DNA of 61,756 nucleotides, counting the filler, from Dugesia japonica (Eukaryota): assembly GCA_001938525.1 (NCBI GenBank). It is 6 parts of 6 records of this genome, joined end to end, with 100 filler letters (N's around TTAATTAATTAA, not from the genome) between each part and the next. Parts side by side here need not be neighbours in the genome. Positions count along the whole stretch, not along the records: positions 52,578 to 61,756 come from MQRL01497390.1; 5 more parts are not named here. One strand, written 5' to 3'. The translations under genes were made by a program, and so were the position numbers. The notes beneath the pieces are model-generated. The model searched no databases and had not been told where the DNA came from. It saw nothing but the letters and a program-made list of their open reading frames with translations. Shown here piece by piece: positions 52,478 to 61,756 of this stretch (its first letter is position 1; the number at the start of each line of letters is the position of its first letter).

Positions 52478-52861
52478 NNNNNNNNNNNNNNNNNNNNNNN
52501 NNNNNNNNNNNNNNNNNNNNNTTAATTAATTAANNNNNNNNNNNNNNNNNNNNNNNNNNNNNNNNNNNNNNNNNNNNAAATTCCCCGAATCAATCTGTCT
52601 ATTTAATTTACCTCACAATCTTTATCATCATATTTTTTATTTTTAACTTCCTCCTCATGTTCATGAATTTTTAATTTTAAATTAATTTTACTTTCTACTT
52701 TACCATCAAAAGATTCTAGTAATTGAGAAGTATTTTTATTCTCTAGTGTTTTACCATACCTATTCATTATTACATTTGAAAAGCTATGAGTCATTTATTA
52801 AAGCTAATTTATTAGAGTCAATCTTTAAAGAAAATCTTTAAAGGTTAAAGAATTTCTTTAG

Positions 52862-53341
52862 TTAAAGATAATCTTTAAAGGTCTCTTTTAATTCTTTAAT
52901 TATTCTATCAAATCTAGAACCAAAAGAAACCTCACCATTAATTAATCTATAAATAAAATAAATACACAAAATACCACATATTCTTGTTCCCCATGGTTGT
53001 ACTTGTACTTTATTGTATTTAAGTTTCCTGCTAGCTGGATTGTTAATAGGTATACAATCTAAAGGAGGTAGTCCATAAGAATCAAAATAATAAGCTTCGT
53101 TATCTAAAATAACATAAGCAACCCAATGAGATCCTTTTTGATTAGAATTTTGATAGTTTATTATCCAGTTTCCAGCTAGCTGGCCTACTGGACAGTTTCC
53201 AGTTTGCTGCCCTTTAAACTCATCCTTCATCACTACATAAACATCAATATTTAAAAAATTAGCAATATCCATTAAATCAAAATTAGTTGTAGATGATATA
53301 CCAAATGTTTTGAGAAAATCTAATATGTTCCAGTTATCCAT
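52862..53341 (-). CDS. Adenain-like cysteine maturation protease
   Basis: IINYQNSNQKGSHWVAY, YYFDSYGLPP, QVQPWGTRICGILCIYFI (H-D-Q-C). Confidence 0.92.
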   Translation of the reverse strand: MDNWNILDFLKTFGISSTTNFDLMDIANFLNIDVYVVMKDEFKGQQTGNCPVGQLAGNWIINYQNSNQKGSHWVAYVILDNEAYYFDSYGLPPLDCIPINNPASRKLKYNKVQVQPWGTRICGILCIYFIYRLINGEVSFGSRFDRIIKELKETFKDYL

Positions 53342-53381
53342 TTTTAAATATCTTTATTTAATTAACCAACTAGTTGACGAG

Positions 53382-54059
53382 TTAACTGGACTGTCTCAAG
53401 CGTAATAGTATATTTATTTTTTCACCATCAAAATCTATTGTATTGAAATTCTCATCTACTATATTTAATTTTATTCTAGATATAAAATCTGTATTAATTT
53501 TTGAATAAATTGGATTAGCTGGTCTATCAGTTATCCTATATCCATAAGGAACTGTTCCCATTGGTAAACTACGTAATAAATTGTATTCTTTATTACTTAA
53601 ATAATTACCTTGTACAAGGTTATAAATAATATTAATTGTATTTATATCAATAATATTAATTTTATTATCTGAAATGAATGAACTTCCTCTTGGACTTCCT
53701 ATTTGACTTCTTGTTGGAATTTCTGTTTTCATTTTATATTCTTTAGGGACTAAATCCTAGAATAGTAAGAAAAAAACAAGTATCATCAAATTCAAGTTTT
53801 AATTTATTTACTTTACTAATATCCAATTCTCTATCAACTAAAGTCATTAAAGCTTTTCCTGTAGATACATCAAAAGTTAAAACTATTCCATCTAGTATTA
53901 ATTTTTCTCCAATCTGTTTTATTTCATAAGCACCAGGAGTTAGAGTTTTATCTTTACCATTGATTTTGTATTTATTATTTTTATTATTAATATTTAAAAC
54001 CATGTTGGATGTAGTAAACCAAATTAAACCAATTTCCCATTCACCTTCTAATTTTAAAC
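53382..54059 (-). pseudogene. Minor capsid protein (penton), frameshift near 53740, start lies in the gap
   Basis: LEGEWEIGL..NINNKNN..PGAYEI; NLVQGNYL..VPYGYRI..PANPIY..IDFDGEKINILLRLR. Confidence 0.85.
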
Positions 54060-54258
54060 NNNNNNNNNNNNNNNNNNNNNNNNNNNNNNNNNNNNNNNNN
54101 NNNNNNNNNNNNNNNNNNNNNNNNNNNNNNNNNNNNNNNNNNNNNNNNNNNNNNNNNNNNNNNNNNNNNNNNNNNNNNNNNNNNNNNNNNNNNNNNNNNN
54201 NNNNNNNNNNNNNNNNNNNNNNNNNNNNNNNNNNNNNNNNNNNNNNNNNNNNNNNNNN

Positions 54259-55015
54259 AAGTTATTTTAACAAACTTTTCTAATAAGTTTATTGGGTTAC
54301 CACTACTTATTGGGTTACTATTTCCTAAACCATAACTTATCACAGTTTCCTTTACAGTTTCAATTTCTTGAGGATATTTTAATTTTTTAAATTCTTCATC
54401 AAATAATCCTCTTTTTTTACATACTTTGATATATTTACTTGAATGTGGTATATTAAAATTAAAACTATATAAATATTTTTTTCTAGCTTCATTATCATTA
54501 GATCCGTAACCAAACATTAAATTTAATACTTCTTGATCAAATGGTATTTCTTTCTCTTTTCCAAGAAGCTGTAAAACAAAATATTTCTTTAATTCTCCAC
54601 CTCTCATTCTTTGTTTTAAATAAATTAGATCCGATCCTATTTTAAAAGAATCAAAAGTCAAGCTTCCAGTTAACTGGCCTGGATCATCTTCATTATAAAT
54701 AATATGAGGAATTAAAGTAGGAGGTAAATCATATTTATTACTAACTAGTAAATCTTCTTTTTTTATTCTTAATCTATCATCCTTTAAACCATCTACAATA
54801 GGTTCAACTTTAGTTGCTGGTTGTAATTGATTACCTTGTAATTAGTTACCTTGTAATTGATTACCTTGTTGTCCAGTTAACTTGAAACCTTGTAATAGAT
54901 TAGTCTCTCCAGTTAACTGTAAACTAACTTGTTCAAGAATTAAATTATCATATTTCTCTCTTCCTCTAATTTGATCTTTTAAACTTTTTATTCTATCTTC
55001 AATCCAGTCAGTCAT
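54259..55015 (-). CDS. Hypothetical viral protein with QGNQL repeats
   Basis: Frame open upstream of the tracked ORF 54041-54661; three 15-bp repeats at ~54821-54870. Confidence 0.5.
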
Positions 55016-59244: not shown

Positions 59245-59249
59245 TTTAT

Positions 59250-59468
59250 CTAATCATGCTTTTGGTTTGACTTGTAATCATTGTAAATTTTATTTATCCA
59301 TTCAATTATTTTCATTCGATTATAGTAAATTAAAATTATAGCTATTATTATAATTACTAATGGACAAAAGATAATATACTTGTAAGATTTTATTTCTGCC
59401 ATTAAATCTATTATTTTTTGTTGGTATTTATTTTTATTTTCATCTTCTTTTTTTAATAGTTTTTCCAT
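59250..59468 (-). CDS. Small single-TM viral protein
   Basis: IIFCPLVIIIIAIILIYY hydrophobic segment. Confidence 0.5.
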   Translation of the reverse strand: MEKLLKKEDENKNKYQQKIIDLMAEIKSYKYIIFCPLVIIIIAIILIYYNRMKIIEWINKIYNDYKSNQKHD

Positions 59469-60113
59469 CCCCTCACTTATATTACTTAGTATACTTGAAT
59501 TACTTGTAATTTCTTACCCATTTCTTATATATATTTTTTTAGGAAATCTTGTTAAAAAAATTCATCATCATTTTTTAATCTATTTTCAATATACTTTTTA
59601 CTTTTTTCATTAATTCTTTTAATCTTTGAATTATAATAATTTGTTTTATTATAATCTTTTACTGTGTATAATTCTTTAGTATCTTGTATTTATTTTTCTA
59701 AATTATAACTTACTTTTTATATTTTACTTTTTCTCTCATATGCTTCTTTATAAATTCGTTGACTTAGATATAAATTTTTAATGGTATTCAACATNTTCTT
59801 TTCATTTTCAGTTGTACATATTTCCAACTTGTTTACCATTATCTTTAAATCTTCTACTATACTACTGATAAATATTTTATCTTCTTTAACCAATTCTAAC
59901 ATGTTTTGTTTTTCCATTTCTTTAATTAACTTTTTAGAGATCCTTATAATTAATACCACTACTTAAATCTAATTGACTTGAATTTCTTTTTAATTTTCCA
60001 TTTTTATTTCCAATGATACTATTTACAAATCCACTATTTTCAATAGTTTTTTTAGTTTTTTCAATAGGATTTACAATAGTATTTTCAATATTTAATTCTT
60101 CATCAACATCATC

Positions 60114-60599
60114 TCAATAAATTGCTCCACCTTTAACTTCTTTTGTTCTTTCTTTAAATAAACTTTTAAAATCTTCTATTTTAATATTAGGATATTGTTT
60201 TTTATAATTTAAACAATATATTAGTTTATTTTTAATTTTATTACTATTTTCTATTAACTTTTCTTCTTCTGTTTTCTTTACTTTTTTAGGTTTAAATTCT
60301 ATTACACTATCATTAGATTTTCTATAATAACTCCCTTCTTTATTAGGTATAAAATTATCATTTTCATAAATATATCTTCTAACAGTAGGTTTTTTCTTTA
60401 CTACTGGATTTAAAACATCCTTTTTTCTTAAAACTTTATTTAATTGAATTGTACTAATTCCAATTTTTTCTGCAACCTCACTTGATTTTATATTTAAATT
60501 TTTACTTAAATTATCTAAATATTTACTATAAATTAATTGCTCTTTAATATTCAAACCAGAGTAATCTCCATTTCTATTTAATCTATAATTATCCCCCAT
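60114..60599 (-). CDS. Basic protein with a possible helix-turn-helix
   Basis: KSSEVAEKIGISTIQLNKVLRK. Confidence 0.5.
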   Translation of the reverse strand: MGDNYRLNRNGDYSGLNIKEQLIYSKYLDNLSKNLNIKSSEVAEKIGISTIQLNKVLRKKDVLNPVVKKKPTVRRYIYENDNFIPNKEGSYYRKSNDSVIEFKPKKVKKTEEEKLIENSNKIKNKLIYCLNYKKQYPNIKIEDFKSLFKERTKEVKGGAIY

Positions 60600-61756
60600 T
60601 TTATAAAGGAAAAAAATGTGATTTAATCTTTTTATTAAATTAATCTCTTCACTCTTCTCTCTTCTCTCTCCCTTTTTTCACTTCTTTCTTCCCTTTTCTA
60701 TTTTCTCTCTTCTCCACTTAGCTCCACTTAGGGCTTTCTCGCGCCTTTTGATTTTTGGTTAATCTCATTTAAGCTAATTTAATCTTATTTCAAAATAAAA
60801 TTATTAATTTTTTAATAAATAATAATTTTTATTCAAAAAAATAATAAATCATCAATAGTAAGTCATAAATCATCATCTGCCGGTACCAATCTACTTCTTT
60901 TTTCATAATATTATTCAACCATTTACCACCTACAAAAATTTGACTCTAGTCTGTAGTCTGTAAACTCTTTTTTAAAATCAAAATACTTTTTTCTACCACT
61001 CTCGACCCAGAAAAATTTGGCTCAAGGTCATTTACACCATTTTTTGATGTCTTAATTCTCCAAATTTTCACTTTTCGAAAAAACATGATAATTTACCACT
61101 TTTTCTATTTTTTCCCCATTTTCAAACTACTTTTTATCAATTTTTCACTACTAGCTAAAAACCATCGTTTATGGTGGGTGGGGGGTGGGTGTGCCTTCAG
61201 CGCCTTTTTACCTCTACTAATGAACATTGTTCTAAAATGATAAATACATTTAACAATACATGTTAATATGATAATTTAATAAAAAATATTATGAAAAGTA
61301 TTTAAAAAATTATTAACAAAATATAAACTAACTTTTAACATAATCATTTGTATATCCATCAGAATCATCACATAGAACATCAGCATCATCGCATTTCTGA
61401 ACTAATAATAATAGTTATTAAGAAATAATAAAATTACAATAATCGAATTCTTTTTCTTCACATTGCTTTGTCTTTCATTAGAATTATCATTTATCTAAAA
61501 GTAGAAATAAATATTATCAAATAAAAATACATTTACATTAGTCATTGTTATAATATTTGTCCAGTTCTTCATATTCTCCGTATTGTTCATATACTAAATA
61601 AATTAATGATAAATATAAAAAAAACAATAAAAAAACAAACTTACGTATCAAAATTCTTCACTTTTAAAAAATAGTTTTATCGAAATTGTGACAAAAGTAA
61701 TTAAGTAATAGCTTTTTATACTGCATTAAACAACCAATTGTAATGCAGTAAAACTT

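What the first reader, a model, noticed from the sequence alone, without database searches (positions are those of the whole stretch)
52578..60700. Full virion morphogenesis module plus integrase but no visible DNA polymerase (element B)
Seen: ~8 kb of co-oriented genes (HTH-like, small ORFs, MCP, PLA2-integrase, ATPase, pX-like, unknown, penton, adenain). No pPolB or helicase motif was recognised, and the DNA right of 60600 looks non-coding. Known: canonical Polintons and adintoviruses carry pPolB. Inference: possibly a compact polymerase-less capsid-encoding transposon or satellite virus. Caveat: the left side ends at an assembly gap (52478-52577) that could hide PolB.
Basis: partly seen in the sequence, partly recalled or inferred. 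Interest (0 to 1): 0.75.

Follow-up and report, generated by a model that had tools for sequence, protein, structure and literature searches.

The report
Cut-off, decayed polinton virus relic
This is a broken copy of an abundant virus-like jumping element (polinton type) whose sequence stops just after its capsid genes, so the missing DNA polymerase most likely lay in the cut-off part rather than marking a new polymerase-free virus.

Summary
The genes are there in the order given, all on the minus strand: capsid, PLA2-integrase, packaging ATPase, pX, an unknown gene, penton and protease. No polymerase motif lies in the window and the contig has no room for one.

The claim of a polymerase-less element is not established. 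The 'gap' is an artificial 100-nt linker found five times, so the element runs off a contig end. No left terminal repeat exists in the contig. A different, very abundant repeat appears to abut it at about 52617. Five of seven core genes are broken.

Public DNA runs hold about 10,000 short contigs from related copies, some internally deleted. None of 15 relatives' contigs extends past the protease, so none tests linkage. Polintons lacking polB beside complete ones are already reported in butterflies.

Verdict: a truncated relic of an undescribed polinton/adintovirus-like lineage. A side find is a 12-bp palindrome repeated inside its genes (12 seen, 0.28 expected).

The parts
52478..52577 (.). 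Artificial contig linker (N44, six-frame stop palindrome, N44); not part of the element
   Evidence: Five identical copies in the window; a linker with the same 12-nt core is described for joining contigs in PMC6700661 (passage)
52578..52617 (.). Likely the edge of a different, very abundant repeat that cuts the element on the left
   Evidence: First depth bin 86,437 (X1) and 93,815 (X2) against a median of 3,873 (X1) in the core; 19 RNA reads leave the window sequence after 52617 (agreement only 0.52) and 8 before 52581
52621..52794 (-). Start of an unidentified gene after the protease (58 codons before the junction); belongs to the family; could be the truncated start of the next gene, polymerase included
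   Evidence: Depth 2,359-2,745 at 52752, as in the protease; no informative relative
52862..53341 (-). Adenain-type cysteine protease, open, 159 aa
   Evidence: Peptidase_C5 E 0.022; E 8e-16 to the L007 protease; H72, D87, Q115, C122 invariant in 3 of 3 rows (catalytic roles recalled)
53382..54059 (-). Penton (minor capsid protein), split by a frameshift; 5' part lies in a 199-N gap
   Evidence: 39-45% identity to L001/L007 proteins in two frames. The penton label for those relatives rests on position, size and recall; no library hit
54259..55015 (-). Conserved gene of unknown function (PZ-like by recall), in-frame stop near 54843, 3' end in the N gap
   Evidence: Weak alignment to the same-position gene of L001, L004, L007; stop lies in a 15-nt tandem repeat
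55021..55635 (-). pX-like core protein, open, 204 aa
   Evidence: 34-40% identity to five relatives, two of which match Adeno_PX
55744..56542 (-). A32/FtsK-type packaging ATPase; frameshift near 56060, 50-N gap, stop near 55796
   Evidence: Pox_A32 E 1.5e-3; E 2e-34 to the L001 ATPase over three pieces; Walker A intact
56517..57943 (-). PLA2 domain plus rve integrase, a single fused gene in relatives, here split by a frameshift near 57365
   Evidence: Pfam PF08398 and PF00665; one ORF in P0067, P0068, P0069, L001 and element A; D, D, E positions kept
57970..59244 (-). [quoted passage not shown]
   Evidence: PF21738; 41-51% identity to P0001, E 4e-101; 12 full-length relatives of 415-444 aa
59250..60113 (-). 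Three small ORFs (72 aa with a hydrophobic stretch, 66 aa, 59 aa), unidentified
   Evidence: no hit above threshold; low family depth, 89-139
60114..60599 (-). Basic 161-aa protein, possibly helix-turn-helix
   Evidence: Sub-threshold Pfam/PHROG hits; Atlas 0.80-0.83, a lead only
60600..61218 (.). Non-coding end region; candidate right terminus at 61218 (reads AGTAGAG inward on the minus strand)
   Evidence: A different high-copy repeat starts at 61218/61219: depth jumps from 23-41 to over 20,000, and an X8 contig joins the window at 61218 from other sequence. AGT/AG end motifs are described for Mavericks
61219..61756 (.). Flanking high-copy host repeat, not part of the element
   Evidence: Depth about 21,000-29,000 in X1 and X2; GC 20%
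53027..57288 (.). Thirteen copies of a 12-bp palindrome (CCAG-N4-CTGG, mostly CCAGTTAACTGG), nearly all inside genes, several at in-frame insertions relative to homologues
   Evidence: 13 of 17 window matches fall here, 2.9 expected window-wide, 0 of 100 shuffles reach 17; 12 seen against 0.28 expected in the core; insertions visible
29336..35388 (-). Sister relic 'A' on another contig: capsid, PLA2-integrase and ATPase only, all broken, between two inverted copies of a 115-135-nt repeat
   Evidence: 65% nucleotide identity to B over 2.9 kb; arms 29373-29485 and 35246-35356 at 87%

Best explanation
Element B is a broken, left-truncated copy of an abundant polinton/adintovirus-like element, and its DNA polymerase gene likely lay in the missing part beyond the protease gene. 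The intact ancestor likely worked as polintons are thought to: the integrase inserts the linear DNA into the host genome, a protein-primed polymerase copies it from its ends, the ATPase packs it into a capsid of major capsid protein and penton with pX in the core, the protease matures the particle, and the PLA2 domain aids membrane entry (all inferred from the families, none tested). After insertion this copy decayed (shown: five of seven core genes broken) and was likely cut by another repeat about 250 nt past the protease (inferred from read ends). The assembly then ends 40 nt further on (shown).
For: The left boundary is a contig joiner. No inverted match to the right end exists elsewhere in the contig: of 35 blastn-short matches between 60601-61230 and 52578-60600, the best inverted ones are 11-16 nt at E 0.06 or worse. 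A family gene begins right after the protease and is cut off. The family is abundant and decayed: 10,112 and 10,468 contigs laid from X1 and X2, of which only 1,423 and 1,585 are 99% or more alike, with joints that skip up to 5.3 kb. B and A have long end branches in the capsid tree (0.94 and 0.62 against 0.10-0.24 for their three nearest intact relatives). dN/dS between A and B is 0.18-0.80 over five pieces, against 0.21 for an intact pair. Sister copy A lacks pX, the unknown gene and the protease, so gene loss per copy is routine. L011 has a polymerase-B-type motif (KLMNNAFYG) about 1.3 kb downstream of a broken capsid relative. Distant L016 has the same gene kit beside a 1611-aa ORF with ExoI, B and C motifs. 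Most vertebrate Mavericks are fossils and intact ones are 12.7-24.6 kb.
Against: No polymerase was shown to be linked to this lineage. None of 15 capsid-bearing metagenome loci extends past the protease (longest 6,660 nt). The 58-aa ORF shows no similarity to a polymerase (E 0.10 to the L016 protein; no hit). L011's fragment has one motif only, no library confirms it, and other DNA lies between it and the capsid piece. L016 is only about 27% identical in the ATPase, has no integrase in the part held, and its polymerase is motif-based only. Element A sits between inverted repeats at 6 kb without a polymerase. The joints have short sides (20-29 nt) at a likeness setting of 88, where the tool warns of false joints.
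Confidence: 0.62

Rival explanations
1. B belongs to a non-autonomous subfamily that lost the polymerase by internal deletion, kept both ends, and was copied in trans by complete members of the same family.
For: Such TIR-flanked polB-less polintons exist beside complete ones in Pieris mannii (10.1101/2025.02.07.637071, section 13 read). Internally deleted copies show as joints here. Element A lies between inverted arms without a polymerase.
Against: No left end in the contig. B's right 1.9 kb is shared by few copies (depth 23-164 against thousands in the core), so there is no sign of one uniform short element amplified end to end. A's right arm is itself a self-inverted 133-139-nt unit (z -6.3) with TAA on both flanks, so the arms may be two insertions of a small repeat; no 6-bp target duplication was seen.
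Confidence: 0.2
2. The whole lineage lacks any polymerase and is a satellite: it integrates and makes its own particles but borrows replication from a helper polinton or virus, or from the host.
For: No polymerase in 8.6 kb of B, 6 kb of A, 6.7 kb of L001 or 6.5 kb of L007. Gene order varies among relatives while the virion kit stays together. The window holds a fragment resembling a second polinton family that could be a helper (recalled likeness, E 1.3 only).
Against: All four examples are incomplete at the end where a polymerase could lie. L011 links a polymerase-type motif to a capsid relative. Starrett et al. found a PolB in the great majority of larger adenain-bearing animal elements (PMC8502044).
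Confidence: 0.1
3. The element is complete in other copies but replicates with a non-PolB enzyme (superfamily 1 or 3 helicase fusion, as in Tlr1 and many polinton-like viruses) encoded in the missing part.
For: Tlr1 pairs an rve integrase with a helicase fusion instead of pPolB (PMC11161782 passage). Insect-associated PLVs with PLA2 and pX use a primase-helicase (10.1101/2023.10.16.562556 passage). L017, a distant ATPase relative, carries a primase-helicase-like gene.
Against: No helicase hit in the window. Starrett et al. did not detect full-length S1H replicases of this class in animal genomes, with a few degraded exceptions.
Confidence: 0.08

Closest known systems
Polintons/Mavericks (Polintoviricetes), including adintoviruses of Starrett et al. 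2021 (PMC8502044)
   Same: rve integrase, A32/FtsK ATPase, adenain protease, double jelly-roll capsid, penton, pX and a parvovirus-type PLA2 domain; AGT/AG-type candidate end; many decayed copies.
   Different: No polymerase in the sequence held; one end only. PLA2 is fused to the integrase with pX separate, whereas Alpha adintoviruses are described with PLA2 fused to pX (PLA2X). All genes lie on one strand, unlike the two-module layout of most vertebrate Mavericks. The integrase ends without the C-terminal extension seen in P0071-P0074 (chromodomain by recall).
polB-lacking polintons of Pieris mannii and other Lepidoptera (bioRxiv 10.1101/2025.02.07.637071)
   Same: Hallmark polinton genes without polB, in a genome with many related copies.
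   Different: Those are TIR-flanked, polymorphic insertions carrying LINE or LTR cargo, with complete relatives shown. Here no second end, no cargo and no complete relative was seen.
Entomopoxvirus-associated PLVs (bioRxiv 10.1101/2023.10.16.562556) and Tlr1
   Same: A32 ATPase, adenovirus-type protease, PLA2 and pX/mu homologue; replication module exchangeable.
   Different: All four of those PLVs encode PolB or a primase-helicase, and a tyrosine recombinase or no integrase. B has an rve integrase and no visible replication gene.

Membership tests
Polinton/Maverick | Retrovirus-like (rve) integrase | tested here: met
   PF00665 E 5e-11, above cut-off; D, D, E kept
Polinton/Maverick | [quoted passage not shown] | tested here: inconclusive
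   Absent from the contig (no room), but the element is cut on the left and no complete relative was obtained
Polinton/Maverick | [quoted passage not shown] | tested here: met
   PF21738 on two pieces, below cut-off; intact relatives reach E 5e-28; gene is broken in this copy
Polinton/Maverick | Minor capsid protein (penton) | tested here: inconclusive
   Homologous to 256-257-aa proteins at the expected place in L001 and L007; no library or fold confirms the label
Polinton/Maverick | Packaging ATPase and adenain-type protease | tested here: met
Polinton/Maverick | Terminal inverted repeats of 100-1,500 bp (PMC10748475 passage) | tested here: inconclusive
   One candidate end at 61218; no partner in the contig; the other end is not assembled
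Polinton/Maverick | 5-8-bp target-site duplication | not testable with these tools
   Needs both flanks; the left flank is missing and no whole genome is held
Polinton/Maverick | Length 13-25 kb | tested here: inconclusive
   8.6 kb held, truncated
Alpha adintovirus | OTU-PolB of the pfam03175 class | tested here: inconclusive
   No polymerase in the contig; element incomplete
Alpha adintovirus | PLA2X gene (PLA2 fused to a C-terminal pX domain) | tested here: not met
   PLA2 is fused to the integrase in P0067-P0069, L001 and element A; pX is a separate gene
Alpha adintovirus | Capsid proteins cluster with the Mayetiola type | not testable with these tools
   No named reference proteins were available; the tree holds unnamed relatives only; four peptide motifs found nothing in the paper's supplement text, which was cut when stored
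Tlr1 / helicase-type PLV | Superfamily 1 or 3 helicase fusion in place of pPolB | tested here: inconclusive
   No hit in the window; element incomplete
Satellite virus (polymerase-less, helper-dependent) | Complete, end-bounded genome with intact virion genes and no replicase | tested here: not met
   One end only; five of seven core genes broken

The most novel reading that the evidence does not exclude
The family is a real polymerase-free lineage of integrating viruses in an animal genome: about 9-10 kb, a full virion kit plus a PLA2-integrase fusion, amplified to very many copies while borrowing replication from a helper, and colonised by a mobile 12-bp palindrome that inserts in frame into surface loops of its proteins.
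Probability: 0.1. Interest if true: 0.7.

Novelty: new member of a known kind. Interest (0 to 1): 0.25.

Why it matters
As it stands this is an ordinary polinton fossil, and a warning that linker-joined contigs can create an apparently polymerase-less element. Two points have some value. First, it marks an abundant lineage with a PLA2-integrase fusion that has intact relatives in environmental data (51% capsid identity) and that I did not see described in the passages read. Second, the in-gene palindrome is a strong signal with no explanation yet. If complete copies truly lacked a polymerase, it would be an integrating satellite virus of polintons in animals and would allow a direct test of whether polinton ends can be replicated in trans.

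Tried and rejected
Whole-genome survey: no genome is held for this window, so copies could not be collected.

Relatives with context: seven viral-collection scans gave only two distant loci. The prokaryote genome scan gave none. The metagenome scan gave 15 loci, all under 6.7 kb.

Identity of the 58-aa ORF: one hit at E 2e-4 to a 3,558-aa repetitive protein among 1.84 billion, judged spurious. Atlas hits of 0.93-0.95 were to short hypothetical clusters with a low recognition score. Nothing in Pfam, PHROGs or the loci. A single-sequence fold was submitted but never finished, so no structure evidence exists. The 161-aa protein was not folded.

Confirming L011's fragment as PolB failed.

Element A as a clean TIR-bounded polymerase-less element: not accepted, because its right arm is a self-contained hairpin unit and no 6-bp duplication was found. 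A suspected likeness between A's and B's small ORFs was rejected (0 of 36 pairs beyond shuffles).

The left contig as B's continuation: rejected (linker, different GC, no protein match between B and that contig).

The other half of the flanking repeat was not found in the window. Rfam: no match. The palindrome stretches do not fold better than shuffles (z -0.8 and -1.2), and no comparable GC-rich repeated 8-mer was found in seven relatives' loci.

Expression: no RNA holder listed. One raw RNA run gave 77 reads in about 25% of the run, 74 only partly fitting; no conclusion drawn.

The host organism was not identified; a literature search on a guessed host group gave nothing usable. Look-ups of earlier findings by place, words and sequence were empty three times of four.
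Full report
1. The observation. Pfam on 23 translated pieces gave DJR capsid (E 1e-4 and 2e-3), PLA2 (2e-8), rve integrase (5e-11), Pox_A32 (1.5e-3) and Peptidase_C5 (0.022). Intact relatives from metagenome loci L001 and L007 map onto penton, pX, ATPase, capsid and protease by tblastn and alignment. The penton and PZ-like labels rest on position and recall. The 'HTH-like' call has only sub-threshold support.

2. No polymerase in the contig. A six-frame scan of the whole window for six recalled polymerase motifs found no A, B or C motif; one ExoI-type match lies inside the ATPase and two ExoII-type matches lie outside B. 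A 1611-aa motif-bearing probe from L016 gave no tblastn hit at E 1. Pfam found no polymerase or helicase among 115 further frames (115 scanned: 107 of the 121 listed, those inside B having been scanned, plus 8 shorter or trimmed ones). That negative is weak, because Pfam and PHROGs missed the L016 protein too. The stronger point is space. Unassigned DNA inside B is 244 nt on the left, two N runs (199 and 50 nt) that fall inside genes whose missing parts account for them, and 2 kb on the right that holds small ORFs. An intron-split polymerase, as earlier unchecked notes of this scan describe in other genomes, would need more room still.

3. The left end is not a real end. The 'gap' is N44-TTAATTAATTAA-N44, found five times in the window; a linker with this core is a known way to join contigs (PMC6700661, one passage). 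The contig to the left has higher GC and no protein match to B. Laying public data on 52578-61756 (4 of the 24 runs listed) showed a first bin of 86,437 and 93,815 summed depth, and RNA reads that share only about the first 40 nt and leave the window sequence after 52617 (19 reads, agreement 0.52). I infer that a different, very abundant repeat cuts the element there. Just inside, a 58-codon ORF starts after the protease and has family-level depth (2,359-2,745 at 52752). Five searches did not identify it and its fold never returned. It may be the start of the next gene, polymerase included, but this is not shown.

4. The right end. Depth is 23-41 at 60840-61145 and over 20,000 from the next bin on, and a contig of run X8 joins the window at 61218 from other sequence. 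The bases ending at 61218 read AGTAGAG inward, like the AGT and AG end motifs of Mavericks (PMC8097293 passages). They could instead be the end of a small TAA-duplicating element, since a 135-nt hairpin unit at 35254-35388 starts with the same motif. No inverted partner exists in the contig. So one end is plausible, the other is missing, and a target duplication cannot be tested.

5. The copy is dead and the family is large. Capsid (two frameshifts), PLA2-integrase (one), ATPase (one plus a stop), the unknown gene (a stop) and penton (one) are broken; pX and protease are open. Other copies differ by small insertions or deletions near three of these breaks, which fits copy-specific decay; assembly error is not excluded. 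Runs X1 and X2 gave 10,112 and 10,468 laid contigs, 1,423 and 1,585 of them 99% or more alike. Core depth in X1 had a median of 3,873 over 21 bins (range 254-39,026), against 6-15 for single identical contigs. The tool states that this is no copy number, so I claim only many related copies. Run X8, from a second organism, gave 958 contigs. The right 1.9 kb is shared by few copies (23-164). In a tree of 19 N-terminal capsid pieces, B and A group with P0001-P0003 (support 95/93) on long end branches. dN/dS between A and B was 0.18, 0.36, 0.61, 0.65 and 0.80 over five pieces, against 0.21 for an intact pair (rough counting method, near saturation).

6. Element A. The sister relic (65% identity over 2.9 kb) keeps only capsid, PLA2-integrase and ATPase, between inverted arms at 29373-29485 and 35246-35356. 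This looks at first like support for a short polymerase-less unit. However, A also lacks pX, the unknown gene and the protease, its right arm is a self-contained hairpin (z -6.3) with TAA on both flanks, and no 6-bp duplication was seen. It shows that copies lose genes freely; it does not show a polymerase-less lineage.

7. Relatives. The capsid piece found 12 full-length proteins at 37-51% identity among 844 candidates. The integrase found 17 among 582, three with PLA2 fused in front. The metagenome scan confirmed 15 loci from 103 candidates. The kit stays together but order and strand vary. None extends beyond the protease: L001 ends just after the penton and L007 inside the protease. L011 carries one polymerase-B-type motif about 1.3 kb past a broken capsid piece (36% to P0001), unconfirmed by six further tests. 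L016, a distant viral contig, pairs the same kit with a motif-bearing polymerase. Linkage in this lineage is therefore suggested, not shown.

8. Mechanism. Shown: gene content, breaks, contig end, abundance of related sequence. Inferred from the families (PMC8502044 parts 1-3 of 6; PMC11161782 passages; PMC4028283 passages): integration by the rve integrase, replication by a protein-primed polymerase, packaging by the ATPase, maturation by the protease, membrane entry aided by PLA2. I put 0.62 on a truncated relic of a polymerase-bearing family, 0.20 on a non-autonomous deletion subfamily, 0.10 on a truly polymerase-free satellite lineage and 0.08 on a helicase-type replicase in the missing part.

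9. Comparison with what is known. It works like a polinton. Formal membership cannot be completed, because polymerase, paired ends and target duplication are untestable on a cut copy. It fails the Alpha adintovirus PLA2X feature: PLA2 is on the integrase, not on pX. Polintons lacking polB are in print: a preprint reports TIR-flanked, amplified copies without polB beside complete ones in Pieris mannii and a second group with an LTR element in its place (10.1101/2025.02.07.637071; passages and section 13 read). A coral survey attributes missing core genes largely to fragmentation, loss or divergence (PMC11131425 passages). I saw no report of a whole polymerase-free lineage with a full virion kit in animals, nor of the PLA2-integrase fusion, in the listings or in the passages read. 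These searches cover open-access text only; Repbase entries and preprint supplements were not seen, the one journal supplement was cut when stored, and any of these may describe this family.

10. Side finding. A 12-bp palindrome is strongly enriched in B: 13 of 17 window matches lie in 4.3 kb (2.9 expected window-wide), and the core pattern occurs 12 times against 0.28 expected. A has one such match against 0.05 expected. Several copies coincide with in-frame insertions relative to homologues. Whether it is mobile or a binding site is untested. It is the most unusual feature seen, though modest.

11. Verdict. Observation partly confirmed; interpretation undecided and less likely than simple truncation. 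New member of a known kind; interest 0.25.

Noticed in passing
window 53027-57288: A 12-bp palindrome (CCAG-N4-CTGG) occurs 13 times, nearly all inside genes (protease, unknown, pX, ATPase, integrase), none in the capsid gene or right arm; several sit at in-frame insertions and give repeated QLTG peptides. A second palindrome core (CCAACTAG, 5 counts on both strands) often lies beside it. One paper search (listing only) showed no title on this in polintons.
   Followed up: partly
window 8630, 17208, 27239, 43193, 52478: Five identical 100-nt linkers: the window is six unrelated contigs, so any finding that spans them is an artefact.
   Followed up: yes
window 35252-35390 and 29336-29485: A 133-139-nt self-inverted unit (z -6.3) with AGTAGT...ACTACT ends and TAA on both flanks, and a decayed inverted copy 6 kb away. 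Either polinton ends of element A or a small Harbinger-type MITE. B's right junction shares AGTAG..GTAAAA with it (3 matches in the window, 0.15 expected).
   Followed up: partly
window 1286-3021 and 3545-5680: Retroelement-like region: pieces of a Monjiviricetes-type fusion glycoprotein (E 7e-28 and 2e-26) upstream of aspartyl protease and reverse transcriptase pieces.
   Followed up: no
window 51950-52477: End of the left contig resembles the pX-like gene and integrase start of a second, more GC-rich polinton family (recalled likeness; tblastn E 1.3 only).
   Followed up: partly
window 46000-51990 and 5755-8629: Two strongly strand-biased, GC 32-42% blocks of co-oriented ORFs with hydrophobic stretches and no Pfam hit; unexplained.
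   Followed up: no
window 40774-40896 and 30347-30643 / 40510-40751: An isolated penton fragment (56% to L001) abuts one arm of another dispersed inverted repeat.
   Followed up: no
L001 4586-5191: A 201-aa gene between capsid and PLA2-integrase with an HNH-like look (recalled; no Pfam hit); absent from B.
   Followed up: no
L016 226-5061: A 1611-aa protein with pPolB motifs that Pfam, PHROGs and the PDB search all miss, next to PLA2, pX-like, protease, capsid-sized and ATPase genes.
   Followed up: partly
L007 16-6525: A relative that begins with AGTAGT near the contig start and runs small ORFs, capsid, pX, ATPase, unknown, penton, protease to the contig end: the same end-to-protease layout as B, without the integrase in that span.
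   Followed up: partly
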